From contig CAVXTP010000022.1 of NCBI GenBank assembly GCA_963764715.1, positions 448,001 through 512,000 on the forward strand: a stretch of 64,000 nt of DNA. Reading direction: 5' to 3'. Below, one piece after another: positions 24,245 to 38,981 of the stretch. The translations under genes were made by a program, and so were the position numbers. Below the pieces are notes generated by a model. The model saw only the letters and a program-made list of their open reading frames with translations, ran no database searches and was not told the DNA's origin. This DNA comes from an uncultured Acidobacteriota bacterium (GTDB lineage: Bacteria; Acidobacteriota; Thermoanaerobaculia; UBA5066; Gp7-AA6). The stretch's first letter is position 1, and every line of letters begins with the position of its first letter.

Positions 24245-26284
24245 GCCGTCGACGCCCGTTCGACTTCGACGCGCGCGTCGTTGAAGCAGGCGCCGCCGGC
24301 GAGGTCGGTCAGCGTGTCCGGCGCGAGGGCGTTGGCCGTCGTGCCGCTGTCGGTGTTGTGGGCCCAGATCCCCTTGGGCAGGAGAACGACGCCGGGGCGC
24401 AGCGGCGCTCGCACGCGCGCCCGGCAGCGGACCTCGCCGAGCTCGTTGAAGACGCGCACGGGCTCGCCCGTCCGCGATTCCGCGGGCGGCGGCGTCCTCG
24501 GGATGGAGCTCGAGCGGGACCTGCGGAGCGATGGAGCTCGCCGAGGGTCGAGCTGATCGTCCGGTCCGTCGCCGGCGAGATCAGCGCGAGCGGAAAGCGC
24601 GCCGCTGCCGGGATCGGGCCGGTAGCCATAGAGCCCTCCCGGGGCCTCCGCGTCGAGGGCCTCGGGCACGAGATGCACCCGCCGTCCGCGCGTCTGCGGG
24701 AAGACGTCGACGAACTGGACCGGCGTCGGGCCTTCCGGCGGGACTGGCGTCGTCGCCACGCCCGGCCGCCGCCCGAAGCTCCCCGCCGCGCCGCGACGAG
24801 CCGTACAGCGCGTCGGCGAGCTCCTCCGCCGTCTCGGGGTCGCCCGGCTTCGCCACGCCCGTCCGGCGGCAGAGCTCGGCGAAGACCTCGTGGTTCGGCC
24901 GGGCCTCGCCGTGGGGCGGGACGACCGCCTCGGCATCCTGGAGAACGAGCGCGCCGTAACCGCGGCGAGATCTCGCGGCGCTCGAGAAACGTCGCGGCCG
25001 GCAGGATCACGTCGGCGTAGCGCGCCGTGTCCGTCAGGACCGGATCGAAGACCACCGTGAAGAGGTCCTCGCGGGACAGAGCCGGCGCGGACTTTTTCCT
25101 GCGCCGGGATCGTCATCAGCGGATTCGAGTTGTAGACGAACAGCAGGTCGACGGACTCCGAGCCGGTCGCGGCCAGCGTTTCGCCCAGCCGGTTCATGTT
25201 GACGAGGCGCGTCGCGGGCTCGACCGCCGCGGCGCCGGCCAGGCCCTTCAGCTCCCGCCACGCGGAGGAGTTGCGACATGGTGTAGCCGCCGCCGCGGAC
25301 GCCGAATTTCCCGGCCACGGCCGGCAGCGCGAGGATCGCCGCCGTCGCCGAGCCGCCGCTGCGGCTGCGCTCCGGCCCCCAGCCGCACTTGAGAGCCGCC
25401 GGGGACGAGTCGGCGTAGAGGGAGGCGAACTTCTCGATGTCCGACGCCGGGACGCGCGTCTCGGCCGCGGCCCGCTTCAGCGTCCACGCGGATGCGCGGC
25501 GCTCGAGCTCGGCGGCGCCCGTCGCGTGCGCCTCGAGAAACGCGCGGTCGGCCCGGCCGTTCGCGAAGAGCCACCGGATGACCGCGAGGGCGAGCGGCAG
25601 ATCGGTTCCGGGATGCGGAGCGAGATGGAGGTCGGCCCGTTCGGCCACGCGGGTTCGCCGCGGATCGACGACGACGAGGCGGGCCCCGTTCCGCTGCGCC
25701 TCCTGGACGTACGGCAGGAGGTGAATGCCCGAGACCGAGGGATTGACGCCCCAGAGGACGATCAGCTTCGCCCGCGCGTAATCCGGATAAGCGATGCCCG
25801 TCATCTTCCCGTACAGGCCGGCGTTGGCGGCGGTCGACGGCGCGGCGCAGACGGTCCGGGCGAGGCGCGAGGCCCCCAGGCGGTAGAAGAGCCGGGCGTC
25901 GGTCGTGTCCTGCGAAAGGTACCCGTTGGAGCCGCCGTAGGAGAACGGGAGGATGCCCTCTCCCCCCCGGCCGTCGCGCACCGTCTTCAGCCGGCGAGCC
26001 ACGAGGTCGAGCGTCTGGTCCCAGGACGCGCGCTCGAACCTCCCCTCGCCCTTCTTGCCCGCTCGGATGCCGGGGTGGAGGATGCGTGCCTCGCCGTACA
26101 TGTGCCGCGGGAACTCCCGCACCTTGGCGCAGATGTAGCCCTGCGTCACGGGGTTGACTCGGGAGCCTCCGATCTCGACGACCCGGCCGCCCTCGACGGT
26201 GACGTCGAGGCTGCAGGCGTCCGGACAGTCGAGCGGGCAGGCGCTCGCGACGTGCCGCGCCGACTCTCCGGGCCCGGAGCTCAT
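24241..26284 (-). pseudogene. Molybdopterin-dependent oxidoreductase, reading frame broken by about 7 indels (probably sequencing errors)
   Basis: CPLDCPDAC and ICAK N-terminus, WGVNP, DPRRT, YNSNP, TDTARYADVILPA, DLAGGACFND distributed over three frames between 24.45 and 25.28 kb. Confidence 0.8.
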
Positions 26285-28077
26285 CCCGTGAACTCCAGGA
26301 TGCGGTCCACGCTGTCCACCGAGATGGGATGGTAACCCGGCCGGGCCTTGCGGTAGATGGCGAGGCTGCGCTCGCGGCCGTCGGGAGCGGCCTTCGCGAG
26401 CTCCTCGTAGAGCGGCTTGATGTACTTCCGGCGGCCGATCGAGACGAGGAACGCCTCGAGCCGGGCGTCCGCCGCGCGGTACCCGGCGCGAATGGACATC
26501 AGGAGCCACTGGAAGGCGACCTCGTTGTTTCCGGTCGAGGTCAACCGGAAGGCCTCGTCGAGCTCCCGCATCCGGTCGAGAGGAAGCGGCGTCGGAAGCT
26601 TCCGGAGAAACGCCAGGCGCTCCTGCGTCGCCCAGCCGCCGAAGGGCACGTCGGCGGCGCGCAGGGTCCCGGCGCTCCACGCGTCGGCGCGGCGTCCCAC
26701 CTCGACGAGCCTCTCCGAGACGGGACGCGGCGCCTCGTCCGGCAGGCCCGGCGCCTCCGTCCACTTCTCGAGCGGCACCTTCGCGGCGAGGCGACCGTCC
26801 TTCGAGAGGAGGTTCTCCCTCAGGTACGCGAGGAAGTCGGCGGTCGTGATGCTCTGGAATGCGAAGTGGTCGAAGTAACCACGGAGGAACTCGTCGAAGG
26901 GGCCGCGGCCGTAGAGATCCTCCAGAGAGCGCAGGAAGAGGCAGCCCTTCTCGTACGGAACGCGGGTGGCGCCGTCGTCGGGGTCCCGTCCCCCGAGGTC
27001 GATGTGCAGGATCTCGTCGCGGTCCTCGAGGCGCGCGATCTCGTCCTCGAGGTCCTGGCGCCCGAGCACCGCCTCCATCCGCGCGAAATCCGCGCCGTAG
27101 ACGTCCTCGCTGATGCGCCGCTCGAGATACGTCGTGAAGCCCTCGTTCAGCCAGAAGTCGCTCCAGGTCGCGTTGGTCACGAGATTGCCCGACCACGAGT
27201 GCGCGAGCTCGTGGGCGATGAGCGACACGAGGCTGCGGTCCCCGGCGAGGACCGTCGGCGTCGCGAACGTGAGGCGCGGATTCTCCATCCCTCCGAACGG
27301 AAAGCTCGGGGGCAGGACCAGGATGTCGTAGCGGTCCCACCGGTACGGCCCGTACAGGCGCTCGGCCGACTCCATCATCCGCTCGGTGTCGGCGAACTCG
27401 TGGGCGCTCGCCGCGAGGAGGGAGGGCTCCGCGTAGACGCCCGAGCGGGGGCCGAGAGGCGCGAACTCGAGGTCCCCGGCGGCGATGGCGAGCAGGTACG
27501 CCGGGATCCGTTGCGGCATCGAGAACCGGTACGTCCCTCCGCGCTCCCGGGTCGGGTTGCCGGCCGCGCTCATCACGGCCACGAGCTCGGGCGGCGTCCG
27601 GATCGTCGCGCCGTACGTGATCCGGACCTGCGGCGTGTCCTGGATCGGGATCCAGCTGCGGGCGTGGATCGCCTGGGATTGCGAGAAGAGAAACGGGTGT
27701 TTCTTGCCCGCCGTCTGCGGCGGAGTGAGCCACTGGAGGCCCGAGGCGCCCGGGCGGGTCGCGTAGCGGACGCGCACCCGGTCGGCGCCCGGGGGAAGAG
27801 CGATCGTCAGCGGCGATCCCAGGATCGGGTCGGCCGGCCCCACCTCGAACCGCGCGGGCGCGAGCGAGGCCCCGCTTCCAGCCTCGACCCCGGACACGTC
27901 GAGGCCGCGGGTGTCGAGAACGAGGCTCGCGGCCGCCGGGTCGACGCGCTCGACCGTCAGCGTCGCGGTGCCCTCGAGGATCCGGCGCTCGAACCGGACG
28001 TCGAGGTCGAGGTCGGCGTGACGGACGCGGATCCGCGCCGGGTCGGAGTACGAATGAACGTCGCGGGCCGCGGTCAT
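26281..28077 (-). CDS. M1 family aminopeptidase (leukotriene A4 hydrolase-like)
   Basis: GGMENP, HELAHSW...E (HExxH-x18-E), PYEKG, GRRKY. Confidence 0.93.
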   Translation of the reverse strand: MTAARDVHSYSDPARIRVRHADLDLDVRFERRILEGTATLTVERVDPAAASLVLDTRGLDVSGVEAGSGASLAPARFEVGPADPILGSPLTIALPPGADRVRVRYATRPGASGLQWLTPPQTAGKKHPFLFSQSQAIHARSWIPIQDTPQVRITYGATIRTPPELVAVMSAAGNPTRERGGTYRFSMPQRIPAYLLAIAAGDLEFAPLGPRSGVYAEPSLLAASAHEFADTERMMESAERLYGPYRWDRYDILVLPPSFPFGGMENPRLTFATPTVLAGDRSLVSLIAHELAHSWSGNLVTNATWSDFWLNEGFTTYLERRISEDVYGADFARMEAVLGRQDLEDEIARLEDRDEILHIDLGGRDPDDGATRVPYEKGCLFLRSLEDLYGRGPFDEFLRGYFDHFAFQSITTADFLAYLRENLLSKDGRLAAKVPLEKWTEAPGLPDEAPRPVSERLVEVGRRADAWSAGTLRAADVPFGGWATQERLAFLRKLPTPLPLDRMRELDEAFRLTSTGNNEVAFQWLLMSIRAGYRAADARLEAFLVSIGRRKYIKPLYEELAKAAPDGRERSLAIYRKARPGYHPISVDSVDRILEFTG

Positions 28078-28530: not shown

Positions 28531-30750
28531 ATGCGCCAGAGCCTGATCTTCGCCGCCGCCACGCTCGGACCGGTCCTCCTCGCCTCCCTCGGCGCCGGGT
28601 CCCCGCCCGAAGCGGCCCCGGCGCCTCCCGATTCGCCGTCGCGGCCCGTCACCGACCGTTACTTCGACGTCGAGGTCACGGACGGCTTCCGCTGGCTCGA
28701 AGACTGGACCGATCCCGCCGTGAAGACCTGGAGCGAGGGCCAGAACGGTTTCGCCCGGTTCGTCCTCGACGGGCTCCCCGGCGTCGCCGCCCTGCGGGAG
28801 CGCGTCCGGGCGATCGCTCAGTTCCCGTCCCCGGGGTATTCCTCGATCGTCCGGCGCGGGAAGACCCTCTTCGCGATCAAGAACCAGCCGCCGAAGCAGC
28901 AGAGCTTTCTCGTGGCTCTCCCCTCCGCCGAGGACCCGGCCGGCGAGCGGACGCTCGTCGATCCCAACGCCCTCGACTCCAAGGGGGGCGTGGCCATCGA
29001 CTGGTTCGTGCCCTCCTTCGACGGCCGGCTCGTCGCCGTCTCGCTCTCGGAGGGAGGAAGCGAGGCGGGCAACCTCCGCGTCTACGAGACGTCGACCGGC
29101 CGCGCCCTCGCCGACGCCATCCCGCGGGTCAACGGCGGCACCGCCGGCGGCGACGTGGCGTGGAACGGCGACGGCAGCGGGTTCTTCTATACGCGCTACC
29201 CGCGCCAAGGCGAACGGAGCCCGGCCGACCTCGACTTCTACCAGCAGGTCTACTTCCACCGCCTCGGCACGCCGGCCACGGACGACGCCTACGCCGTGGG
29301 GAAGGAATTCCCGCGGATCGCGGAGACGACCCTCGAGTCTTCCGAGGACGGCCGGTTCGTCCTCGCGTCCGTCAAGAACGGAGACGGCGGCGACGAGTCG
29401 CAGTACCTTCGCGCGCCCGACGGGAAGTGGACGCGGCTCGCCGGCGATGCCGACCGGGTCGTGGACGGCCGCTTCGCCGCCGACGGCTCGCTCTACCTGC
29501 TCTCACGGCTCGACGCTCCCCGGGGCCGGATCCTTCACCTCGCCGCGGGCCGGACCGATCTCGCCTCGGCCCGCGTCCTCGTTCCCGAGGGCGACGCCTC
29601 GATCGAGGGCTTCTGCCTGACGGAGAACCGGATCTTCGTCCAGGAGCTCACCGGCGGGCCCTCGCGCCTGCGCGCCGTCGGAAGGGACGGCCGGACGGTC
29701 TCGACCGTTCCGATCCTGCCGACCTCCTCGGTCTCCGACCTCGCCTCGGCCGGGGACGACTCCGTCCTCTTCCAGAACCAGAGCGCGCTCGTCCCGCCGG
29801 CCTGGTATCGCGCCTCGGCCGACGGGAAGGTCGCGAAGACCGCGCTCGTTCGCCGGTCTCCGGTCGATTTCTCCGACTGCGAGGTCGTTCGCGAGTGGGC
29901 CGTCTCGCGGGACGGGACCCGCGTGCCGATCGACGTCCTGCGCCGGAAGGGCACGACGCTCGACGGCAACAACCCCGTGCTCCTCTACGGCTACGGCGGC
30001 TACTCGATCAGCCAGAAGCCGGCCTACTCCGCCATGCGCCGGGTGTGGCTCGAGCAGGGCGGCGTCTTCGCCGTCGCCGGGCTCCGCGGCGGGGGCGAGT
30101 TCGGAGACGAGTGGCACCGGGCCGGCCACCGCACCCGCAAGCAGAACGTGTTCGACGACTTCGCCGCCTGCGCCCGTCGGCTCATCGAGCTCGGCTACAC
30201 GAGACCCTCCCGCCTCGGGATCGAGGGCGGCTCGAACGGGGGCCTCCTCATGGGGGCGGCGTTCGCCCAGCATCCCGATCTCTTCGGGGCGGTCGTCGCC
30301 CACGTCGGCATCTACGACATGCTCCGGGTCGAGATCTCGGCCAACGGGCAGTACAACGTGACGGAGTTCGGGACCGTGAAGAACCCGGACGAGTTCCAGG
30401 CGCTCTATGCCTACTCCCCGTACCATCACGTCAAGGCGGGAACCTCGTATCCGCCGGTCCTGTTCATGACGGGGGCCAACGACGCGCGCGTCGACCCGAT
30501 GCAGTCGCGCAAGATGACGGCCCTCATGCAGAGCGGCGGCGCGAAGCGGGGGTCGGTGCTGCTCCGAACGAGCGCCTCCTCGGGCCACGGCATCGGCAGC
30601 TCGCTCGACGAGAAGACGGCCCAGGCCGTCGACGTCTACGCGTTCCTGTTCGCGAAGCTGGACGTGACCTACCGCCCGACGCCCGCCTCCCCTCCCCCCG
30701 GGCGGGGGGAGGGGGCCGGGACGGAGGAAGCGGTCAGAACCGGACGGTGA
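28531..30750 (+). CDS. Secreted prolyl oligopeptidase (S9A)
   Basis: Signal peptide; YGYGG, RGGGEFG, GGSNGGLL catalytic Ser, DARV, GHG; SD AAGGAG. Confidence 0.94.
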   Translation: MRQSLIFAAATLGPVLLASLGAGSPPEAAPAPPDSPSRPVTDRYFDVEVTDGFRWLEDWTDPAVKTWSEGQNGFARFVLDGLPGVAALRERVRAIAQFPSPGYSSIVRRGKTLFAIKNQPPKQQSFLVALPSAEDPAGERTLVDPNALDSKGGVAIDWFVPSFDGRLVAVSLSEGGSEAGNLRVYETSTGRALADAIPRVNGGTAGGDVAWNGDGSGFFYTRYPRQGERSPADLDFYQQVYFHRLGTPATDDAYAVGKEFPRIAETTLESSEDGRFVLASVKNGDGGDESQYLRAPDGKWTRLAGDADRVVDGRFAADGSLYLLSRLDAPRGRILHLAAGRTDLASARVLVPEGDASIEGFCLTENRIFVQELTGGPSRLRAVGRDGRTVSTVPILPTSSVSDLASAGDDSVLFQNQSALVPPAWYRASADGKVAKTALVRRSPVDFSDCEVVREWAVSRDGTRVPIDVLRRKGTTLDGNNPVLLYGYGGYSISQKPAYSAMRRVWLEQGGVFAVAGLRGGGEFGDEWHRAGHRTRKQNVFDDFAACARRLIELGYTRPSRLGIEGGSNGGLLMGAAFAQHPDLFGAVVAHVGIYDMLRVEISANGQYNVTEFGTVKNPDEFQALYAYSPYHHVKAGTSYPPVLFMTGANDARVDPMQSRKMTALMQSGGAKRGSVLLRTSASSGHGIGSSLDEKTAQAVDVYAFLFAKLDVTYRPTPASPPPGRGEGAGTEEAVRTGR

Positions 30751-32917
30751 GCTGCGCGGTCACCCCGCGCGGGGCCGCCACGTAGAACTGGCTGTCGCCG
30801 ATCTCGCTCTCGGTCGTGTAGTGCCGGGAGTCGCCGAGGTTGCGGCCGATCACGGCGATCTGGAAGTGCTCGAGGCTGTACGACAGGCCGGCGTCCGTTT
30901 CGTAGAACGACGGCGTGTAGAAGGTGTTGCGGCGGTTCAGGGGCCGATGGTTCTGATGACGCACGGCCACGAACCCGCCGATCCCCTTCGGGGGCGCCAG
31001 GACGAACTTGAAGTTCCAGAAGTCCCGCGGATCGAGCTCGACCTGCTTGCCGTCGACGACACGGTATTGCCCGTCCGGCGTGAAGAACGAGAACTGCTTG
31101 AAGCGCGAGTCGTGGTGGGCGTAGCCGCCGTAGAGCGAGAGGTTCTCGACGAACGGGAGGGCGTAGCCGATCTCCACTTCCGTGCCCTGGAAACGGACCT
31201 TGCCGGCGTTCGTCAGCGCGGGTCCGTCCGGCGTCAGCGTCCCGACGACGAGGTTGCTGAAGATCATGTGGAACCAGGTCACGTTGAAGGACAGCTTCCC
31301 GCAGAGCCAGAGGGTCTTGAGTCCCGCTTCCTGCGTGTTGGTCGTCTCGGGCTCGAGGATCTCGGCGTCTTCGGCCTCCGTCAGGTTCGGCGCGGCCGGC
31401 TTGAAGTTGCGCCGGGCCGCGCCGTAAAGGCTGACGCCCGACAGGTAGTCGTTCGGCCGGTCCACGATCTGGAAGAGACCGGAGACGCCCCAGGAGAATT
31501 TGTTGACGTTCTTCGAATCCGTGGCTTCGTCGAACTCGGGGTCGCCGATCTCCTGCTGGAAGACGTGGAGCGTCTCCTTCGTGAAGTCCTCGCGGCCCCC
31601 GACCGTCAGCGTGAACCATTCGATCGGCGTCCACTGGTCGTTGACGTAGAGGCCGATGAACGTCCGCTCGTCCTTGAAGTTGCGGTTGTCCCCGAACGGG
31701 AACGAGCCGTAGACCGGGACGACCTGCGGATCGATCTGGAAGTTGAAGTCGAAGCCGTGGCCCTCGGCCGTCGTCTGGCCCCAGGTCAGGGCGGCTCCGG
31801 CCACGAGCTGGTGTTTGCCTGCGGCGTCGAACCGCGCGGTGACGTGGGCGTCGTCGTAGACCACCGTCTCCTTGGGATAGAGCGCGATGCCCTCGGAGGT
31901 CCCCGTATTGCCGTTCACGGAGGTCATCCAGGAGCGGATCTGGCCCTGGTTGTCGTTGGTCACGCCGAGGATGTTCTCGAACGTCAGGTTCGAATTGATC
32001 GGAGTCGAGATGTTGTTGAAGAGCCCGATCGTGTGGTGGTCGACCCGCGCGCCCTGGACGGCGAAGTTGAGATCCGGGTTCTGGAACCCCGGAATCGGCT
32101 CGCCCGCATCGACCGGCACCGGTGAGCCCCAGAAGTTGGTATCCCGGAACCAGAGCACGGAGGTCGTCATCTTCGTCTGCCCGAACGTGTTGTCGAACGA
32201 GAGCCGGAGCTGCTCGCGCGTGAAGTCCGTGCGCTCCTGCCAGCCTCCGCCCTGGGCGATCGAGCCGTTCAGCCGGATGGCGAAGTCGGGATTCACCTGG
32301 GTCCCGACGTTGACGTCGCCCCAGCCCTGGGCGAAGGCGCCGAAGCCCCCGACCGTCGCGCTGCCCCAGGTGGTTCCGCCCGTGTGGGACCGGGTGAAGA
32401 TCTGCACCATCCCGGCGAAGGCCGACGTGCCGTACAGCGTGCCCTGGGGACCGCGGACGATCTCGATCCGGTCGATGTCGTCGACCGGAATCATCGCGAG
32501 GTTGGGATTGAACGGCCCGCCGACCGGCACGCCGTCGAGGGTGATCATGAGGGCGTCGAACTCCTTGATGCCGTACACCCCGATGTTCGGCAGGCGCGGG
32601 CCGTTGTCGGAGCCGTTGCCGGTGTCGATGCCGACGACGTTTTGCAGGGCGTCGGCGAGCGTGCGGGTGCCCCGGCGGCGAAGCTCCTCGCCGCTGACGA
32701 CGCTGACCGCGTTCGGGATCTCGAGGACCTCCTCGGAAACCTTGGTGGCCGAAACGACGACGTCCTCCTCGAACGACGGGTTCGTGGCCGACGAGGGCGC
32801 CGGAGTCGGCGAAGGCGTGGGCGCCGGGGTCGTGGTCTGCCCGCTCAGGGCGGCGCCCGAGCCGAGCAGGATGGCCGTCAACGCGCCGGCGAGCCGGCGC
32901 GCAATTCTCCACTTCAT
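30734..32917 (-). CDS. TonB-dependent receptor
   Basis: Signal peptide; TonB box EDVVVSAT; plug IDRIEIVRGPQGTLYG; C-terminal Phe (LTVRF); SD GAAGGAG. Confidence 0.93.
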   Translation of the reverse strand: MKWRIARRLAGALTAILLGSGAALSGQTTTPAPTPSPTPAPSSATNPSFEEDVVVSATKVSEEVLEIPNAVSVVSGEELRRRGTRTLADALQNVVGIDTGNGSDNGPRLPNIGVYGIKEFDALMITLDGVPVGGPFNPNLAMIPVDDIDRIEIVRGPQGTLYGTSAFAGMVQIFTRSHTGGTTWGSATVGGFGAFAQGWGDVNVGTQVNPDFAIRLNGSIAQGGGWQERTDFTREQLRLSFDNTFGQTKMTTSVLWFRDTNFWGSPVPVDAGEPIPGFQNPDLNFAVQGARVDHHTIGLFNNISTPINSNLTFENILGVTNDNQGQIRSWMTSVNGNTGTSEGIALYPKETVVYDDAHVTARFDAAGKHQLVAGAALTWGQTTAEGHGFDFNFQIDPQVVPVYGSFPFGDNRNFKDERTFIGLYVNDQWTPIEWFTLTVGGREDFTKETLHVFQQEIGDPEFDEATDSKNVNKFSWGVSGLFQIVDRPNDYLSGVSLYGAARRNFKPAAPNLTEAEDAEILEPETTNTQEAGLKTLWLCGKLSFNVTWFHMIFSNLVVGTLTPDGPALTNAGKVRFQGTEVEIGYALPFVENLSLYGGYAHHDSRFKQFSFFTPDGQYRVVDGKQVELDPRDFWNFKFVLAPPKGIGGFVAVRHQNHRPLNRRNTFYTPSFYETDAGLSYSLEHFQIAVIGRNLGDSRHYTTESEIGDSQFYVAAPRGVTAQLTVRF

Positions 32918-32920
32918 GGA

Positions 32921-32967
32921 CTTCTCCTTCGAATTTGAATTGGGACGAAGCCGCGGGAACGGAGAAG
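32921..32967 (-). promoter_or_regulatory. Putative SD-sequestering hairpin of the TonB receptor
   Basis: mRNA CUUCUCC-g-UUC (32967-32957) is complementary to GAAGGAGAAG (32930-32921), which contains the SD. Confidence 0.55.
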
Positions 32968-32969
32968 GT

Positions 32970-33641
32970 CTAAAGGCGGAGAGGAAGAGGCGGCGGGATG
33001 GGGACGGCGGCTTCGCGCCGCGCGGCGGGGGACGGCGCGACGGCGGAGCGAGCACCGATTCTCGACGGCGCCGGCGGGCCGAAGGCGCCGGGGTCGGGCT
33101 CCTCGGCGTCGCCGTGCGCGGCCCGGCGCTCGGACCACGCGGGCTCGCGCCCCAGGCTCTGATCCAGGAAATCTTCGGCGTCGAACTCCGCGAGCGCCTC
33201 GCGAGTCCACCACTCCGCCGCACCGCGCGTCAGTCCGGCGCCGTCGGGGCCCGCGCCGGCGACGATCGCGAACCGCGCGCTCACGAGAACGACGCGCTCC
33301 TCGCCGGGCTCCCCGTCCCGTCCCCTCCGCAGGCCCAGCCGCGCTCGGGTTGTCGCGACGTCCGGGACCCGCCAGGCGTGACCCGAGAGGCACGCAGGCA
33401 TTTCGCCCGTCAGCCGGATGGGAAACGTGCGGCCGTCGTCGAGCGACAGCACGAGCTCGCCCTCGTGCTCGCGGTCCCGGTCGCACGGCGCGGTCCACGA
33501 CGCCTCGACGGTCGTTCCCGCCGAAAACGACGCTGCCGCGCCGGGGAACCGGAAGCCTTCGGCGGCCGCGGCGAGCGCGCACGCCAGGAGGCCGAGGACG
33601 CCGACGGCGAGCGTCCGGGGTCGGAGCATTGACCGGGACAT
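32970..33641 (-). CDS. Secreted hypothetical protein, paralogue 1, ending PLRL
   Basis: Signal peptide; VLSLDDGRTFPIR, WRVP and AEWWT shared with the neighbour; TAGAAT -10 box 8 nt before the ATG. Confidence 0.75.
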   Translation of the reverse strand: MSRSMLRPRTLAVGVLGLLACALAAAAEGFRFPGAAASFSAGTTVEASWTAPCDRDREHEGELVLSLDDGRTFPIRLTGEMPACLSGHAWRVPDVATTRARLGLRRGRDGEPGEERVVLVSARFAIVAGAGPDGAGLTRGAAEWWTREALAEFDAEDFLDQSLGREPAWSERRAAHGDAEEPDPGAFGPPAPSRIGARSAVAPSPAARREAAVPIPPPLPLRL

Positions 33642-33695
33642 TTCGGGAGATTCTAAGGGAGCCCCGGCGCAAACGGCACGACGATTCGCTGGCCG

Positions 33696-33738
33696 AAGAA
33701 AAAGGCGGCCCGTGCGGACGGAGGGCCGCACGAGCCGC
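33696..33738 (-). terminator. Rho-independent terminator between the two paralogues
   Basis: Minus strand GCGGCTCGTGCGG / CCGCACGGGCCGC 13-bp stem followed by CTTTTTCTT. Confidence 0.8.
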
Positions 33739-33867
33739 ATGAAAGACCGGGATGAGCTCGGCGAAAAGGACGTGAGATCAGCCCGGGAAAACGTTCGCGG
33801 TGCGGCGCCTCACGAGGCGCGCGCCGCGCTCGCCATCCCGGACCGAAGCTCCCGACCGAAGAGGGGT

Positions 33868-34557
33868 CTAGAGCCGCAGCGGAGCGGCGGCGACGGGGCG
33901 GAAGGAGAGAACGGACCCGCCGCGAGGAGCGGAGCCGGCGGAATGCGCGATGCCGACGACCGCTCGGCCGATCTCCCGCCCGGTGGCCGGCGACGGGGCG
34001 CCGGCGATCTCGGTCGCGACGAAGGGGACGAGGATGCGTCCGGCCGCGGAGGACATCGCGCCGCCGAACAGGTCCTCCGCCGTCAGCACGGTCGCTTCGG
34101 GGGGCGTCCACCATTCGGCGGTCCGCCGGTAGAGCTCCTGGACCCGGCCGTCGACGTCCGACAGGATCCGGAAGTCGCCGCTGACGGCCCGGAGGCGTTC
34201 GGTCCTCCCCAGACCCTCGGATCCCGTGCGGAGCGCGAGGCGAGCTCGGCCCGTCGCCAGCGCGGGCACACGCCAGAGGTAGCTGGTCGCGCACGGGTGG
34301 AGCTCGTTGGACACGCGGATCGGGAACGTGAGACCGCCGTCGAGCGAGAGGACGACCTCGGCTTCGTCGGCGCTATCGCCGGTCGCGCTCGCGCTCGCGC
34401 AGGCCGACGCCCAGCGCACCTCGACGATCGATCCCGGAGCGAGGGATTCGCCGCGGCCCGGCGAGAGAAACGGCGACGACACCTCGCCACGCGCCGCCAA
34501 CGCGGCCGCGAGCGAGACGAGGACCGCGAGCCCCGTCCTCCATCGCCCCGATGACAT
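33868..34557 (-). CDS. Secreted hypothetical protein, paralogue 2, ending PLRL
   Basis: Signal peptide; VLSLDGGLTFPIR, WRVP, AEWWT; TATAGT -10 box 7 nt before the ATG. Confidence 0.75.
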   Translation of the reverse strand: MSSGRWRTGLAVLVSLAAALAARGEVSSPFLSPGRGESLAPGSIVEVRWASACASASATGDSADEAEVVLSLDGGLTFPIRVSNELHPCATSYLWRVPALATGRARLALRTGSEGLGRTERLRAVSGDFRILSDVDGRVQELYRRTAEWWTPPEATVLTAEDLFGGAMSSAAGRILVPFVATEIAGAPSPATGREIGRAVVGIAHSAGSAPRGGSVLSFRPVAAAPLRL

Positions 34558-34600
34558 TGCGCGGACTATAACCCGCAGGGGACTGTTCCGGCCAACGCGA

Positions 34601-34990
34601 TCAGTGAGGAGCGGGCGTGGGGCCGGGAGCCGCATACCCTTCGCGGCGCGTGCCGTCCGGGTTCAGAGGCGCCGGGCCGCAGATGTAGGCCTCCCCCAGG
34701 CGGCCGTCGCCACGCACCAGCACCGTGTCGGCGCCCGCGAGCACGGCCTGCGTCCGGAAGTAGTCGGGCACCTGGGAGGGAGCCGGGACCAGGACCGGGT
34801 CGTACTGCGGCTCGATGTTCTTGACGAATTTGCAGGTTCCCTGGACCTTCTCCGCGTCCTCGGTGAGGCGGACGGCGTACTTGCCCTTCGTCGTCGCCTC
34901 CTCCTTGGCCTTGTCGGCTTCCTTCATGCTCGTGCAGGCGGCCATCACGAGGATCGCCGCCAGGCCGGCCGCCGCCGTTCTCATCTTCAT
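34601..34990 (-). CDS. Small lipoprotein (DUF4156-like)
   Basis: Lipobox MAA-C; CKFV...GADTV...GEAYIC Cys pair. Confidence 0.65.
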   Translation of the reverse strand: MKMRTAAAGLAAILVMAACTSMKEADKAKEEATTKGKYAVRLTEDAEKVQGTCKFVKNIEPQYDPVLVPAPSQVPDYFRTQAVLAGADTVLVRGDGRLGEAYICGPAPLNPDGTRREGYAAPGPTPAPH

Positions 34991-35327
34991 GACGTCAGTA
35001 TCGCACCGATCGCCACCTCGTAATTCCCCCAGTCGATCGCGGGACCCGCGACGGGTACATTCCGCCGGTCCGGCCGGGCCGGTCCGAGTGGTCGGCCCCC
35101 GGACGTCCGTAGAGTTTTTGCTCTCGCGAGCATCGGGCGCGGCGACAGCCGCGCCCACCTTTTTCCGATCAACTCGAGACCTGGGGCCTCGGCAATTCGA
35201 GAGAAATGTGATTCGGCGGTCACTGGTCGGTCCCCGGGGGATTTCTTCGCTGTCCATGGGGCGGACACAATCCGTCGGGATTGCGTGCCGGCGAAATGTG
35301 CGTCCCCATCCGGCTGTTGAAGGCGGC

Positions 35328-35864
35328 ATGCCCATCACGGACGGAGGCCCGCTTTCCGGGCGGACGTGCCCGGCGTTTCGTTTACTGACCCTCCTTTCCG
35401 CCGGCTTCGCGCTGGCGGCAACCGCCGCCCCCGTACCGGCCGAAAAACCCGACGTCCGGGCACGGATCGTCGCCGTCCCCAGCCAGCCCGCCGGCGATCG
35501 GACCGTCGTCACCGTGGAGCTCTCGATCGGCCCGGGGTGGCACGTCAACAGCCACACTCCTCTGGACGCCTTTCTCATCCCGACCGACCTTTCGCTCGCG
35601 GCGTCGGCCGGCACCCTCTCGCCTGTTCGTTACCCCGAACCCCGGGAACGGAATTTCTCCTTTTCCGAGAAGCCGCTCAGCGTGTACGAGGGAACCGTGA
35701 GTCTCGAAATGGACCTCCAGCTTCCGACGGCGAGCGGAAAGGTCCATCTCTCGGGGAACCTCACGTATCAGGCCTGCAACGATCGGCAATGCTTCGCCCC
35801 GGCGACTCTCTCGCTCGAATCGAACATCACGACCACGGACGCCCCGCCGTCCTCCGGCCCGTGA
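35328..35864 (+). CDS. Stand-alone DsbD N-terminal (Ig-like) domain protein
   Basis: Signal peptide; IGPGWHVNS, VRYP, VYEG, YQACNDRQCFAP. Confidence 0.82.
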   Translation: MPITDGGPLSGRTCPAFRLLTLLSAGFALAATAAPVPAEKPDVRARIVAVPSQPAGDRTVVTVELSIGPGWHVNSHTPLDAFLIPTDLSLAASAGTLSPVRYPEPRERNFSFSEKPLSVYEGTVSLEMDLQLPTASGKVHLSGNLTYQACNDRQCFAPATLSLESNITTTDAPPSSGP

Positions 35865-36068
35865 GACCGAAGCTCCTTTCGCTTGTCGTCGCGAAGACGC
35901 CCGCGCGTTCCCTCCATGGGACACGCCGCCCCCGCCGGAGGTCACCCTGGTCGATCCCCGGAGCGCCGATGGTTCGGCTACAGGTCTCGCGAATGGGCGG
36001 TTTGCAATGATTTCACCGATGGTCGAAAGTGGCCCTGCGATTGCAGGAGCTCGATCTCTCGAAAACTG

Positions 36069-36803
36069 ATGCAGCCAGGGCGAGGGTCCGGCAAGGGGTT
36101 CCGACGGGGCATGGCACTTGGCGGCCTGCTGTCGCTCCTTCTTGGGATCCTCGGACCGGGCGCAGCGCTCGCCGCCGACCCCGCCGGAAGTGTCGATTTG
36201 CATCGGCTCGACGGCAACCCCCTCGCCCTCGACGCTCTCAGGGGCAGGGTGGTCATTCTCGATTTCTGGGCCTCCTGGTGCGTACCGTGCCGGACGAGCT
36301 TTCCGTTCTTCGACGCTCTCCAGCGAAAGTACGCGTCCCAGGGGCTGACCGTCATCGGACTGACGCTCGAGACCAGCGAGCACACGATCAAAGCCTTCCT
36401 CGATACCGTGCCCGTCGACTTCACCATCGCCCGCGATCCGACGGGACGGGCCGGCGTGGCGTTCGACGTCGTCGCCATGCCCACGACGTTGCTCCTCGAC
36501 CGGGAGGGCCGGGTGGCCGCTCGCTTCGAAGGAGGCGACAAGGAGACTCACGCGAAGCTCGAGGCGGCGGTCGCGCTCCTCCTCGCCGGCGATGCCCTGC
36601 CGAAGGGAACGGGAGTGCGCGTCTCGGGGGATCTCGAAGCGACGGGCACGATCAAGGCGTGGCAACGCGGATACCTCGCCGACCCGATCATGAGCCTCGA
36701 CGGCGACCCGGCGAGTCGCATCTTCAAAGAACACATCCACGCGAGCAAGGAGGCGGCCGCCGGCGACGGCGGCGCGGCGGGGGGCGGCTGTGGCTGCAAC
36801 TAA
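36069..36803 (+). CDS. TlpA/ResA-like thioredoxin fused to a DUF4266-like domain
   Basis: LDFWASWCVPC and AMPTT, then in the same frame IKAWQRGYLADPIM...HIHASKE...GGGCGCN; start may be 36111. Confidence 0.82.
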   Translation: MQPGRGSGKGFRRGMALGGLLSLLLGILGPGAALAADPAGSVDLHRLDGNPLALDALRGRVVILDFWASWCVPCRTSFPFFDALQRKYASQGLTVIGLTLETSEHTIKAFLDTVPVDFTIARDPTGRAGVAFDVVAMPTTLLLDREGRVAARFEGGDKETHAKLEAAVALLLAGDALPKGTGVRVSGDLEATGTIKAWQRGYLADPIMSLDGDPASRIFKEHIHASKEAAAGDGGAAGGGCGCN

Positions 36804-38010
36804 CCCTGTTCCGAACCCCGTGGCGCGACACGGTCGGCGCTCGTTCGGTGACGTTCCATGGATCGCCGCCGGGCTGGGAGCCCTCGCCGCGCGGCACGCG
36901 CAGGCACAGTCCTCGGTCGATGCGCAATTTCTGTTCTACAAGGAGTCCGGGGGACGAACCCAGGTCCTCAACCCCCTGATTCTCTGGAACCAGGACTTTG
37001 GAAAGACCGGCGGCGAGCTCGGTCTGACGCTCGGCTACGACTCGATTTCCGGAGCCTCGCCCACGGGGGGCTACCCCACGTCGGACGTGACCACGTCGGC
37101 ATCCGGCACGGTGACCCAAAGCGGGAACATTCCCCAGGCCGAGTACCAGGACACGCGCAAGTCCGTGGGACTCACCTACGGGCGTCGGTTCGGGGCCAAC
37201 CTTCCGAACGTCAATCTCGCCTACGCCCAGGAGAACGACTACACCGCGCGTGGCATCGGGCTCTCCGATTCGTGGACGCTGGTGGGAGGCCGGGCCACCC
37301 TCCACTTCGGGGCCGCCCTCTCGCGCGACACCGTCTCGCCTGTGTCTGGCCCGGAGGTCGGGCAGCACCTGCCCAAGAACACGAACGGGTTTTCCATCGG
37401 TTGGAGCTGGATCTTCGGCGAGAAGGACCTCGCGGACATCTCGGTCTCCCTGATGAATCTGTCGGGCTATCTCAACGACCCGTACAAGATCGTTCCGATC
37501 GGAGGGAGCGATTCCACGGAAACCGTTCCGGACTCGCGGCCGAGCACGCGCTCGCGCCGCGCGGTGGTCGCCAAGTACAGTCACTCTTTCGGAGGGGATG
37601 CATCGGTCAACTTCTTGTACCGCTACTACGGGGACGACTGGTCCGTTCACGCCAATACGCTCGACGTGACTTACAACCAGAAGCTCGGTGCCGACTGGAT
37701 CGTCTCCCCCGAGATCCGCCTCTACACGCAAACCGGCGCTTACTTCTTCGGTAACCGCTTCCTGGTCGTTCAGCCCTACATGTCGGCCGACTACAGGCTG
37801 TCGCCGTTTGGGAGCTTCCTCGGCGGCCTGACCCTCACTCGTCGCCTCCAGGACTCCCTCAGCGCGAACGTGGGGGCGACTTTTCTTTCCCAGCACGGGC
37901 GCGATCGCATCATCCTTCCGCCCACCGGCGAGACTCGCGGCGTGACTTCAGTGTCGGCGGCCGACATGAGCGTCAGCACCGTCACGTTCGGTCTCGTCTG
38001 GAGCTACTGA
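36790..38010 (+). CDS. DUF3570-like outer-membrane protein with a flavinylation motif
   Basis: DSISGAS (SGAS) motif; ENDY, GYLNDPY, YRYYGDDW, RLYTQTGAYF, SADYRLS; aromatic C-terminus; overlaps the GCGCN end of the upstream gene. Confidence 0.8.
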   Translation: MAATNPVPNPVARHGRRSFGDVPWIAAGLGALAARHAQAQSSVDAQFLFYKESGGRTQVLNPLILWNQDFGKTGGELGLTLGYDSISGASPTGGYPTSDVTTSASGTVTQSGNIPQAEYQDTRKSVGLTYGRRFGANLPNVNLAYAQENDYTARGIGLSDSWTLVGGRATLHFGAALSRDTVSPVSGPEVGQHLPKNTNGFSIGWSWIFGEKDLADISVSLMNLSGYLNDPYKIVPIGGSDSTETVPDSRPSTRSRRAVVAKYSHSFGGDASVNFLYRYYGDDWSVHANTLDVTYNQKLGADWIVSPEIRLYTQTGAYFFGNRFLVVQPYMSADYRLSPFGSFLGGLTLTRRLQDSLSANVGATFLSQHGRDRIILPPTGETRGVTSVSAADMSVSTVTFGLVWSY

Positions 38011-38054
38011 CGGAGCCCGCCGGACGCGTCCTGTATACGCGCCGCTTCCCCCTC

Positions 38055-38981
38055 ATGGGAGGAAGCGCGGTCGTCGAATTCGTGGACGACAGGGGCAGGG
38101 ACAGGGCCGAAGCCCTGGCCCGCGCGGTCGAAGCCGAGGCACGCCGCATCGAGAGGAAGTTCTCCCGCTACCTCGAATCGAGCGTGGTCTCGGAAATCAA
38201 CCGGAGCGCGGGTCGCACGCCCGTCGCGGTCGATCAGGAAACCGAGATGCTCGTTCTCGCCGCTCTCGACATGACGCGCATGACCGGCGGGCGCTTCGAC
38301 CCGACGGTGGGGGTGCTCCGACGCGTCTGGGACTTCAAGAGCCATCGCGTGCCGACCCCGGACGAGGTGGCCGCCGTCCTCCTCCTGGTGGACGCCGGCG
38401 CGGTGGCGGTGCGCGACCGCACCGTGTTCCTGCGAAAGCCGGGTATGGAAATCGACCTCGGCGGAGTGGGGAAAGAGTACGCCGTCGACCGGGCGGCACG
38501 GATTCTCGAGCGCGAAGGCATCCGCTCCGCCATCGTGAACTTCGCGGGCGATGTCCGTACGATTGGAAGCCGCGGGGACGGGCAACCCTGGAAGGTGGGC
38601 GTGGCGGATCCTCGCGAAAGAGGTCGCTGCCGCTTCGCGGTTCGGACTCTCGCGGGCGCCGGCATCGCCACGTCGGGTGACTACGAGCGCGGATTCGTCC
38701 AGGACGGCGTTCGCTATCACCACATTCTGGACGCGCGGACCGGCTGGCCGGCCCGGGGCCTGGCGTCGGTTACCGCAATCGCTGCCTCGGCCTTTCGCGC
38801 GGGCCGCTTTGCGACCGTGGCCTTTCTGCTGGGAGCGGAGGCGGGTCTCGCCCTCCTCGAAGACACCCCCGGGATCGAGGGCACCCTGATCACGGACGCA
38901 GGCGCCATCCTGGCCACGGCCGGGATGAAGATTCTCTCGGACCTGCCCGGCAGCCTCTGGGCGGCGCTGCAGCTGTTCTGA
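38055..38981 (+). CDS. apbE: FAD:protein FMN transferase
   Basis: GRFDPTVG, IDLGGVGKEYAVD, ATSGDYER, YHHILDARTGWP; frame is open back to a CTG at 38007. Confidence 0.92.
   Translation: MGGSAVVEFVDDRGRDRAEALARAVEAEARRIERKFSRYLESSVVSEINRSAGRTPVAVDQETEMLVLAALDMTRMTGGRFDPTVGVLRRVWDFKSHRVPTPDEVAAVLLLVDAGAVAVRDRTVFLRKPGMEIDLGGVGKEYAVDRAARILEREGIRSAIVNFAGDVRTIGSRGDGQPWKVGVADPRERGRCRFAVRTLAGAGIATSGDYERGFVQDGVRYHHILDARTGWPARGLASVTAIAASAFRAGRFATVAFLLGAEAGLALLEDTPGIEGTLITDAGAILATAGMKILSDLPGSLWAALQLF

What the first reader, a model, noticed from the sequence alone, without database searches (positions are those of the whole stretch)
32917..34570. Tandem secreted PLRL-stop paralogues upstream of a TonB receptor: candidate new ribosome-arrest leader system
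Seen: two adjacent paralogues (223 and 229 aa) share a signal peptide, a beta-rich domain with two aligned Cys (W-x3-C...VLSLDxGxTFPIR...C-x4-WRVP...RARLxLRxG...AEWWT-x8-AED), and the same last four residues PLRL followed by TAG-ACC. The tail between AED and PLRL does not align, yet AED-to-end length is 69 vs 70 aa. Known: SecM, VemP, MifM and the DUF2946/CruR uORFs upstream of TonB transporters combine an export signal, a spacer and a conserved C-terminal stalling motif. Inference: PLRL-stop is a stalling motif released by pulling from translocation or folding (possibly disulfide- or ligand-dependent), and it controls the downstream gene. I do not recognise this family.
Basis: partly seen in the sequence, partly recalled or inferred. 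Interest (0 to 1): 0.82.

Follow-up and report, generated by a model that had tools for sequence, protein, structure and literature searches.

The report
PLRL-tailed secreted partners of TonB receptors
Two neighbouring genes encode members of an undescribed family of secreted proteins that always end in Pro-x-Arg-x after an 80-residue spacer and sit in front of an outer-membrane TonB receptor, whose ribosome-binding site is locked in an RNA hairpin starting right after their stop codon.

Summary
Both genes lie on the minus strand (A 33868-34557, B 32970-33641), upstream of a TonB-dependent receptor (30734-32917). They belong to an unnamed Acidobacteriota family. Arg at position -2 is present in 120 of 121 and 113 of 114 members in two searches, and Pro at -4 in 116 of 121. 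The unconserved tail is 80 +/- 1.6 residues long.

New findings:
- Family genes look leaderless: a -10 box lies 6-12 nt before the start in 54 of 71.
- In receptor-proximal copies an anti-Shine-Dalgarno stretch starts about 4 nt after the stop and pairs with the receptor's SD (38 of 49 junctions). The two arms covary.
- This is the RNA layout of CutF- or SecM-type leaders.

Against a pure leader role, 17 A-type copies, including window A, have no gene downstream on their strand and a conserved terminator of their own. They still keep TPLRL, the tail length and TAG. The last residue varies. The Cys pair is not family-wide.

Best reading (0.45): a receptor accessory protein with a C-terminal docking motif on a tether, translationally coupled to the receptor. 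Termination arrest remains open (about 0.27). Stalling itself is untested.

The parts
34565..34570 (-). -10-like box TATAGT, 7 nt before the A start codon. There is no SD, so A is probably a leaderless mRNA.
   Evidence: Sequence. Family-wide, TAnnnT lies 6-12 nt before 54 of 71 family starts, against 5 of 2840 control positions.
33868..34557 (-). Paralogue A (229 aa, P0001), including the TAG stop at 33868-33870.
   Evidence: Best family match 3.9e-70.
34486..34557 (-). A: N-terminal signal-peptide-like segment (residues 1-24).
   Evidence: By inspection. Helix 5-22 in the AF2 model. No signal-peptide predictor was run.
34108..34470 (-). A: FnIII/Ig-like beta-sandwich with an Asp-box (LSLDGGxTFP), residues 30-150.
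   Evidence: AF2 pLDDT is mostly above 90. VIA-align best Z 7.8 to FnIII modules. Invariant residues listed.
33883..34107 (-). A: unconserved tail rich in Ala, Pro, Ser and Arg, of fixed length (residues 151-225).
   Evidence: pLDDT 50-62. Family tail length 80 +/- 1.6. Low information content.
33871..33882 (-). A: terminal PLRL codons (CCG CTG CGG CTC).
   Evidence: Family statistics.
33699..33867 (-). A 3' UTR: a long GC-rich hairpin, then a nearly invariant element ending in a terminator-like hairpin (33705-33738, loop CCUCCGUCC) and a U tract.
   Evidence: Terminator scan. Fold -94.6 kcal/mol, z -4.4. Conserved in 17 loci, with 8 of 30 pairs showing double changes.
33650..33655 (-). -10-like box TAGAAT, 8 nt before the B start codon. 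There is no SD.
   Evidence: Sequence. The same box is seen in L035, L053, L054, L056, L057 and L073.
32970..33641 (-). Paralogue B (223 aa, P0002), including the TAG stop at 32970-32972 and the PLRL codons at 32973-32984 (CCT CTC CGC CTT).
32961..32968 (-). Anti-SD stretch CCUUCUCC, starting 2 nt after the B stop codon.
32921..32929 (-). Shine-Dalgarno region AAGGAGAAG of the receptor gene. It pairs with the anti-SD.
   Evidence: Fold (MFE -12.0 kcal/mol, z only -0.28). Comparative support.
30734..32917 (-). TonB-dependent receptor (727 aa, P0003) with a Plug domain and a 22-strand-type barrel. It ends TVRF.
   Evidence: Pfam Plug 1.4e-22 and barrel 5.2e-30. NCBIfam siderophore-receptor subfamily match below its cut-off.

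Best explanation
A and B belong to an undescribed Acidobacteriota family of Sec-exported accessory proteins of TonB-dependent receptors. Each has an FnIII-like beta-sandwich, a flexible tether of about 80 residues and a C-terminal P-[LRKM]-R-x-COOH. I read that motif as a docking motif of the mature protein. Its partner would be a conserved periplasmic or outer-membrane component: the receptor's plug face, or the Ton or Bam machinery.

The receptor-proximal copy (B) is the first gene of a leaderless two-gene operon. The receptor's SD is locked by an anti-SD that begins a few nucleotides after the B stop codon. Only a ribosome that has read B to its end can open it. Receptor synthesis is thereby coupled to synthesis of its partner.

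Shown here:
- the family, the motif and the tail-length ruler;
- the gene order;
- the promoter-like boxes;
- the hairpin and the covariation of its arms;
- the stand-alone status of A-type copies.

Inferred:
- that the motif acts after translation and docks to a partner;
- the identity of that partner;
- that the hairpin works by coupling.
For: 1. The motif is kept where nothing can be regulated in cis.
- 17 A-type copies keep T-P-L-R-[LC], TAG and tails of 79-81 residues.
- 6 are in tandem before B, 10 are convergent with the receptor, and 1 is convergent with a peptidase.
- They end in their own conserved terminator and start at their own -10 box.

2. The shape of the motif suits docking.
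- Arg at -2 is invariant, the motif is obligatorily terminal, and the last residue varies (L 105, E 30, I 15, Q 14, V 7).
- Positions -3 and -1 covary in charge: in the 121-protein set, basic -3 always goes with Glu at -1 (PRRE 11, PKRE 4). In the second set PRRE 9, PKRE 8, one PLRR.
- These two residues would face the same side of an extended strand.

3. The domain is strongly conserved (16 invariant columns in 57 sequences), as expected for a working protein.

4. The motif is specific to this family: among 3146 long ORFs of the genome, one ends PLRL.

5. Linkage to a receptor is strict across unrelated flanks and across two receptor architectures.

6. The hairpin.
- The SD pairs with nt 1-25 after the stop in 38 of 49 junctions.
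- A junction's own SD pairs better than the SDs of other loci (-15.4 against -12.4 kcal/mol; 0 of 10000 permutations reach this).
Against: - No partner has been identified.
- The tail length is the same (80-81) whatever the receptor type. That fits a ruler set by a universal machine, which could also be the ribosome plus SecYEG.
- In 44 loci the family stop is TAG 36, TGA 5, TAA 3. The receptor stop in the same loci is TAG 26, TGA 15, TAA 3. Docking does not explain this constraint on the stop codon.
- An anti-SD placed after the stop, rather than inside the coding sequence, is the layout of arrest-controlled operons.
- A deviant subclade (L040, L044, L051) lost the motif, the 80-residue tail and the post-stop anti-SD together. 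This may be a single event.
- The window hairpin is not unusually stable on its own (z -0.28).
Confidence: 0.45

Rival explanations
1. Termination-arrest leader. The nascent P-x-R-x slows peptide release at the stop codon, mostly UAG. The parked ribosome melts the anti-SD:SD helix and licenses receptor translation. Export and folding of the beta-sandwich, possibly ligand-dependent, pull on the 80-residue spacer and release the arrest. That spacer would span the exit tunnel plus SecYEG.
For: - The motif is exactly terminal and nearly invariant.
- The tail is a ruler of 80 +/- 1.6 residues with no sequence conservation, and its length does not depend on receptor type.
- About 65-75 residues from the peptidyl-transferase centre to the far side of a translocon is a figure I recall from the literature, not from a call.
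- The anti-SD starts a median of about 4 nt after the stop. That is inside the footprint of a terminating ribosome, and it covaries with the SD.
- TAG is kept while the neighbouring receptor's stop drifts.
- The deviant subclade loses all three features together.
- Precedent: CutF combines a signal peptide, a ligand site, a C-terminal stalling-like motif and an SD-shielding stem-loop (PMC9973294: abstract, section 10 and passages).
Against: - The 17 monocistronic A-type copies keep the motif, the tail and TAG with nothing to regulate downstream.
- The residue on the P-site tRNA varies widely.
- Only 3-4 residues are conserved, and upstream tunnel positions carry 0.7-1.4 bits.
- Charge covariation between -3 and -1 has no obvious meaning inside the tunnel.
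- In E. coli, a basic residue at -2 favours termination and Pro must be last to hinder it (recalled, not from a call).
- The Cys pair is not general.
- No stalling data exist.
Confidence: 0.27
2. C-terminal processing or degradation tag. The exposed P-L-R-x-COOH on a disordered tail is recognised by a periplasmic C-terminal protease or PDZ protein, or cut after Pro by the neighbouring secreted prolyl oligopeptidase. This would set the protein's lifetime or release a peptide.
For: - The tail is disordered with a terminal motif and a variable last residue.
- A secreted S9 prolyl oligopeptidase lies convergent to the receptor in the window, and a prolyl oligopeptidase also lies in L033, L035 and L073.
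Against: - The peptidase is adjacent in only a few closely related loci out of about 67, so this is lineage synteny.
- A degron does not explain the fixed tail length or the strict pairing with a receptor.
Confidence: 0.1
3. General envelope sorting signal, of the kind of PEP-CTERM, the T9SS C-terminal domain, or a beta-signal mimic for BAM. The receptors of this genome end [RK]-F.
For: - The receptors of this genome end VRF, VRF and VKF, so hydrophobic-Arg-hydrophobic-COOH resembles the local beta-signal.
- Hydrophobic residues are favoured at -1, -3 and -5.
Against: - Only the two family members in the genome carry the motif.
- There is no C-terminal hydrophobic helix or domain.
- Pro at -4 and often at -6 breaks a strand.
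- Giant proteins built from the same module lack the motif.
Confidence: 0.06

Closest known systems
CutF of Rhodobacter capsulatus and CutF-like/DUF2946 proteins, including CruR of Bordetella (PMC9973294; read: abstract, section 10, passages)
   Same: - An exported protein is encoded directly upstream of a metal- or transport-related gene.
- It has a Sec signal and a conserved C-terminal motif.
- An intergenic stem-loop holds an anti-SD that shields the SD of the next gene.
- CruR precedes a TonB-dependent transporter.
   Different: - CutF-like proteins were defined as under 150 aa, with a PP motif in the last 15 residues and Cys/His metal sites.
- This family is 210-230 aa with a folded FnIII-like domain, no Pfam DUF2946 match and P-x-R-x at the very end.
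- It has an 80-residue ruler tail and leaderless starts.
- It includes stand-alone copies with no downstream gene.
SecM, VemP, MifM (export-monitoring arrest peptides; recalled, and named in PMC9973294)
   Same: - An export signal and a C-terminal functional motif.
- A downstream SD held in a hairpin that a stalled ribosome would open.
   Different: - Those proteins regulate Sec or YidC components and have no conserved folded domain.
- They use 15-20 conserved tunnel residues and stall during elongation.
- Here the downstream gene is a TonB receptor and only 3-4 terminal residues are conserved.
Termination-arrest peptides TnaC, SpeFL, PepNL (PMC8450073, 10.1101/604074, PMC11890864; seen only as search listing and abstract starts)
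   Same: The ribosome would be held with a stop codon in the A site.
   Different: - Those are short cytoplasmic leader peptides that sense small molecules in the tunnel.
- None ends P-L-R-L. That statement rests on recall and on one search that found no paper joining PLRL with TonB.
C-terminal docking motifs with an invariant penultimate residue, such as HbYX or GQYL tails of proteasome activators (recalled, analogy only)
   Same: - A flexible tail, an obligatorily terminal motif, an invariant penultimate residue and a variable last residue.
   Different: Those belong to cytoplasmic ring complexes. There is no sequence or structural relation, and no partner is known here.
Ordinary translational coupling through SD-sequestering structures in bacterial operons (recalled)
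   Same: Translation of the upstream gene is needed to expose the downstream SD.
   Different: In textbook cases the masking arm usually lies inside the upstream coding sequence. Here it lies just after the stop.

Membership tests
TonB-dependent receptor (downstream gene) | Plug domain followed by a TonB_dep_Rec beta-barrel | tested here: met
   PF07715 at 1.4e-22 and PF00593 at 5.2e-30. The same holds for the downstream genes of 18 further loci. Four of these carry CarboxypepD_reg plus OMP_b-brl_4, and two of the four also match PF00593.
CutF-like / DUF2946 | Pfam DUF2946 match; under 150 aa; PP motif within the last 15 residues; Cys/His metal site (criteria quoted from PMC9973294, section 10) | tested here: not met
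   - No Pfam family at E <= 1 other than a sub-threshold SEF14_adhesin match.
- Lengths are 223 and 229 aa.
- Cys is not conserved.
- The family terminus is P-x-R-x, not PP.
CutF-like / DUF2946 | Intergenic stem-loop with an anti-SD that shields the SD of the next gene | tested here: met
   For receptor-proximal copies, 38 of 49 junctions show it, and the arms covary. It is not present as such after A-type copies.
Exported arrest peptides (SecM, VemP, MifM) | Nascent chain stalls the ribosome at a defined codon | not testable with these tools
   This needs toeprinting, peptidyl-tRNA detection or ribosome profiling.
Exported arrest peptides (SecM, VemP, MifM) | The regulated downstream gene encodes a component of the monitored export pathway | tested here: not met
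   The downstream gene is a TonB-dependent receptor. 17 A-type copies have no downstream gene on their strand.
Exported arrest peptides (SecM, VemP, MifM) | N-terminal export signal | tested here: inconclusive
   The N-termini are signal-peptide-like by inspection, with a helix at 5-22 in the model. No dedicated predictor was available.
FnIII / Ig-like beta-sandwich (Kre9_KNH-like Asp-box module) | Seven-stranded sandwich fold; Pfam PF10342 match | tested here: inconclusive
   - VIA-align Z 7.8, rmsd 2.8, 88 residues aligned to CbhA FnIII modules. This is only generic.
- Foldseek best E 8e-4.
- Atlas neighbours score below 0.9 and some carry Kre9_KNH.
- No Pfam hit.
General C-terminal sorting signals (PEP-CTERM, T9SS CTD, LPXTG) | Motif followed by a hydrophobic helix and basic tail, or a folded C-terminal domain; carried by many proteins of a genome | tested here: not met
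   - The motif is the very end of a disordered tail.
- Only the two family genes are in the genome.
- One PLRL terminus among 3146 long ORFs.

The most novel reading that the evidence does not exclude
A new class of exported sensor-leader. A full-size secreted protein, translated from a leaderless mRNA, pauses the ribosome at its own stop codon through a four-residue P-x-R-x motif. The 80-residue unconserved tail is a ruler that spans the exit tunnel plus SecYEG. Folding or ligand binding of the FnIII-like domain in the periplasm then releases the ribosome and sets how long the abutting anti-SD:SD hairpin stays open. This would give feedback control of a TonB receptor by periplasmic substrate. 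Stand-alone A-type copies would use the same pause for another output, perhaps through their conserved 3' UTR RNA.
Probability: 0.25. Interest if true: 0.88.

Novelty: new variant of a known kind. Interest (0 to 1): 0.68.

Why it matters
TonB-dependent receptors dominate nutrient uptake in soil Acidobacteriota, yet their accessory proteins and their control are almost unknown in that phylum.

This is a widespread module: 223 clusters at 50% identity match at E <= 1e-30. It has no Pfam or NCBIfam family.

It combines four sharply defined and easily mutated features:
- a leaderless start;
- a fixed-length unconserved tail;
- an invariant terminal P-x-R-x;
- an SD-locking hairpin that abuts the stop codon.

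Whichever reading is right, a short set of reporter and toeprint experiments can decide between them. If the motif is an arrest signal, it would be the shortest known termination-arrest motif and the first periplasmic-folding sensor to control an outer-membrane transporter. If it is a docking motif, it identifies a new partner of TonB receptors.

Tried and rejected
- Complex prediction of the receptor (residues 27-727) with B (residues 28-223), both given as alignments, scored 0.00. The tool returned no verdict. It counts neither for nor against binding.
- No RNA sequencing run is listed as holding the region. The DNA holders have only small word shares.
- Rfam: no family at E <= 1 in 32500-35200 except a spurious snoRNA-like row at 0.44.
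- Search for targets of the 3' UTR loop (complement GGACGGAGG, up to 1 mismatch): 40 matches against 64 expected. Nothing specific, so this was dropped.
- Fold searches gave only generic FnIII, Ig, ML, LPMO and CopC-like sandwiches. No functional assignment follows.
- Disulfide dependence: rejected as a family-wide feature, because the Cys pair is missing in distant members.
- RNA-level explanation of the motif (the codons being part of a structure or an anti-SD): rejected, because synonymous codons vary freely.
- Prolyl oligopeptidase as an obligatory partner: rejected, because it is adjacent only in a few related loci.
- Read-through fusion to the receptor: rejected, because the gap lengths from stop to start (48-69 nt) fall in all three frames.
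- Literature: a search for PLRL, C-terminal and TonB listed no paper joining PLRL with TonB. Supplementary figures S4-S7 of PMC9973294 (cluster logos) were not seen and could hold related clusters.

Full report
**1. What is in the window**

All parts lie on the minus strand.
- Paralogue A is 33868-34557 (229 aa).
- Paralogue B is 32970-33641 (223 aa).
- A TonB-dependent receptor is 30734-32917 (727 aa; Plug plus barrel).

A and B are 40% identical over residues 30-168, and their tails do not align. Both carry AEWWT-x8-AED. From the A of AED to the end is 70 aa in A and 69 aa in B. Both end PLRL, then TAG, then ACC. No Pfam or NCBIfam family matches either protein. The genome holds only these two copies.

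An AF2 model of A, built from an alignment of 57 sequences, gives a confident beta-sandwich for residues 30-150. The tail (residues 160-229) has pLDDT 50-62. Fold searches give only generic FnIII/Ig-like matches: Foldseek best E 8e-4, and VIA-align best Z 7.8.

**2. The family**

A word-indexed search gave 126 relatives at E <= 1e-3. Of 121 sequences examined:
- 120 have Arg at -2;
- 116 have Pro at -4;
- position -3 is L 96, R 11, M 5, K 4;
- position -1 is L 78, E 22, Q 9.

A profile search of 1.84 billion cluster representatives found 2495 proteins at E <= 1e-3 and 223 at E <= 1e-30. Of the 132 new sequences among the best 150:
- 114 are short. Of these, 105 end P-x-R-x and 113 have Arg at -2.
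- 18 are giant proteins (1241-6457 aa) that hold 5-27 copies of the sandwich module alone and lack the terminus.

In the 121-protein set, basic residues at -3 always go with Glu at -1 (PRRE 11 and PKRE 4). In the second set PRRE 9, PKRE 8, with one PLRR.

Codons at the four positions vary freely among synonyms. The peptide is therefore what is selected, not the RNA.

From the invariant Trp (W149 of A) to the end, 184 non-redundant motif-bearing sequences have median 80 and sd 1.6, and 177 lie within +/-3. Positions -6 to -40 carry only 0.7-1.4 bits and are rich in Ala, Pro, Arg and Ser.

**3. Genomic context**

A scan of 401 genomes of the phylum found matches in 42. Many of these are only the module inside large proteins. 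One of the 42, G024, is flagged unpublished, and nothing else here rests on it.

I fetched 20 loci from 16 genomes and 49 loci from named Acidobacteriota/Thermoanaerobaculia MAGs. One bin is labelled Eisenbacteria and one Saccharimonadaceae. Two loci duplicate earlier ones.

In 19 of the first 20 loci a TonB receptor follows directly on the same strand. 18 are shown by Pfam. L041 is shown only by tblastn. Both classical receptors (about 700 aa) and CarboxypepD_reg-type receptors (about 950-1000 aa) occur. The other flanks are unrelated between loci.

Over all loci there are 83 family genes:
- 54 have a receptor called directly downstream by a strict script rule.
- 17 are A-type copies.
- 12 are unresolved: contig ends, receptor fragments or partial genes.

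The 17 A-type copies are orthologues of window A and end TPLRL or TPLRC. Window A ends APLRL. They divide as follows:
- Six lie in tandem before a B-type copy (window, L053-L057).
- Ten are convergent with the receptor. In eight of those ten loci the receptor's own B-type copy is seen on the other strand.
- One (L033, same genus) faces a prolyl oligopeptidase. That 16.7-kb locus has no B copy and no receptor.

**4. Transcription units**

A TAnnnT hexamer lies 6-12 nt before 54 of 71 family start codons, against 5 of 2840 control positions inside the genes. Only 6 of 71 have an SD-like core. Several also have a TTGAC(G/A) box further upstream. In the window the boxes are TATAGT (34565-34570) for A and TAGAAT (33650-33655) for B. 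The genes therefore look like leaderless first cistrons.

Downstream of A-type stops lies a structured 3' UTR. In the window it folds at -94.6 kcal/mol, z -4.4, and 0 of 200 shuffles fold as well. It ends in a terminator-like hairpin with a U tract (33738 to 33705). This element is nearly invariant in 17 loci and better conserved than the coding sequence. 8 of 30 predicted pairs show double compensatory changes. A-type genes thus appear to be monocistronic.

**5. The junction with the receptor**

In receptor-proximal copies of the main clade, the gap from stop to receptor start is mostly 48-69 nt. A pyrimidine stretch (CCUUCCU, CUCCUCC, CUUCUCC and others) begins 1-8 nt after the stop. It is complementary to the receptor's SD (AGGAAGG, GGAGGAG, GGAGAAG and others).

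Over 49 non-redundant junctions:
- Duplex energy of the 20 nt after the stop with the SD region averages -13.4 kcal/mol.
- Dinucleotide shuffles average -10.1, and windows from the coding sequence average -7.5.
- In minimum-energy folds, at least 5 SD nucleotides pair with nt 1-25 after the stop in 38 of 49.
- 24 of 49 beat 95% of their own shuffles.

For 33 short-gap junctions, the SD of the same locus pairs better than SDs of other loci (-15.4 against -12.4). None of 10000 permutations reaches this value. Relatedness inflates such a test, but at least four distinct complementary pair types occur.

The window's own hairpin is modest: -12.0 kcal/mol, z -0.28, and 70 of 200 shuffles fold as well. 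The support is therefore comparative, not thermodynamic.

A ribosome with the stop codon in its A site would cover and unwind roughly the first 6-10 nt after the stop. That footprint figure is recalled, not from a call. It corresponds to the anti-SD arm.

**6. Stop codon**

Among 77 non-redundant motif-bearing genes the stop is TAG 61, TGA 11, TAA 5. TAG is followed by A in 40 of 61.

The background in the genome is TAG 35% of 3146 long ORFs.

A paired control uses the 44 loci with classical receptors:
- the family gene has TAG 36, TGA 5, TAA 3;
- the receptor gene in the same loci has TAG 26, TGA 15, TAA 3.

The PLRI clade mostly uses TGA. There is thus some constraint on TAG in the main clade, but it is not universal.

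**7. Weighing the readings**

All three hold. The hairpin abutting the stop is the RNA layout described for CutF-cutO (PMC9973294: abstract, section 10 and passages).

A deviant subclade (L040, L044, L051; ends R-[LR]-N-x; tails 87-106) also lacks the post-stop anti-SD. This fits a linked device, but it may be a single evolutionary event.

Several facts argue against the motif being only a cis-acting arrest signal:
- A-type copies have their own promoter box and terminator and no downstream cistron. They still keep the motif, TAG and a tail of 79-81 residues.
- The residue that would sit on the P-site tRNA varies widely.
- Positions -3 and -1 covary in charge, as side chains on one face of an extended strand would.
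- Only three or four residues are conserved.
- The domain has 16 invariant columns.

The pattern is an invariant penultimate residue, a variable last residue and an obligatorily terminal position on a flexible tail. That pattern is typical of C-terminal docking motifs (an analogy recalled from memory).

I therefore favour (0.45) a receptor accessory protein whose terminus docks to a conserved envelope partner, with plain translational coupling through the hairpin. The arrest model stays a serious rival (0.27), for three reasons. The tail ruler is independent of receptor type. The stop codon is constrained. The masking arm lies after the stop. A degradation or processing tag (0.10) and a general sorting signal (0.06) are less likely: the peptidase neighbour is lineage-specific, and only the family itself carries the motif in this genome.

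**8. What is known and what is new**

The family fails the stated criteria of CutF-like/DUF2946 proteins (length, PP motif, metal site, Pfam match). It shares their stem-loop logic. It is not a Sec or YidC monitor. I found no paper joining a PLRL terminus with TonB systems.

It is best filed as a new variant of translationally linked accessory or leader genes of transporters. It is carried by a new protein family with an unusually sharp set of features.

**9. Limits**

- No stalling, expression or binding data exist.
- Start codons, promoters and receptor starts were assigned by simple rules. Receptor starts were chosen by best SD, so the figure of 45 of 46 with an SD is partly circular.
- Loci are related to one another, so counts are not independent.
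- The signal peptides were judged by eye.

Noticed in passing
window 33699-33867 (minus strand); same element in L033, L053-L063, L065-L068: The 3' UTR of A-type genes holds a nearly invariant element of about 75 nt: ...UUUCGCCGAGCUCA..., then a hairpin with the loop CCUCCGUCC, then a U tract. A long GC-rich hairpin with compensatory changes precedes it. The element is better conserved than the coding sequence and has no Rfam match. It is a candidate 3'-UTR-derived small RNA or a special terminator.
   Followed up: partly
window 34565-34570 and 33650-33655 (minus strand); 54 of 71 family genes in the loci: -10-like TAnnnT boxes lie 6-12 nt before the start codons and there is no Shine-Dalgarno sequence. 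The family genes seem to be leaderless mRNAs, while the receptor behind them has a strong SD.
   Followed up: yes
L040, L044, L051: A subclade of the family ends LLL[TS]-x-R-[LR]-N-x instead of P-x-R-x. It has longer tails (87-106 residues) and no anti-SD after the stop, yet it still precedes a TonB receptor.
   Followed up: partly
proteins P0123-P0128, P0141, P0177, P0186, P0237 and others: The same roughly 80-residue Asp-box sandwich module occurs 5-27 times in giant proteins of 1241-6457 aa. These look like adhesins and do not carry the P-x-R-x terminus.
   Followed up: no
window 26281-28077 (-) and 28531-30750 (+): An M1 aminopeptidase (leukotriene A4 hydrolase-like) and a secreted S9 prolyl oligopeptidase flank the receptor. 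The peptidase is convergent with it. This synteny is shared with L033 and L035, and the prolyl oligopeptidase also with L073.
   Followed up: partly
window 35366-38981 (+): A cluster of four genes: a DsbD-N-like ORF (no Pfam hit), a Redoxin fused to DUF4266, DUF3570, and an ApbE flavin transferase.
   Followed up: no
window 34601-34993 (-): A small lipoprotein-like ORF (130 aa, no Pfam) lies directly upstream of A. It is conserved next to A in L033 and L035.
   Followed up: no
L098 and L096: Family loci occur in bins labelled Saccharimonadaceae and Candidatus Eisenbacteria. The first is probably a binning error, because those organisms are not expected to have TonB receptors (recalled).
   Followed up: no
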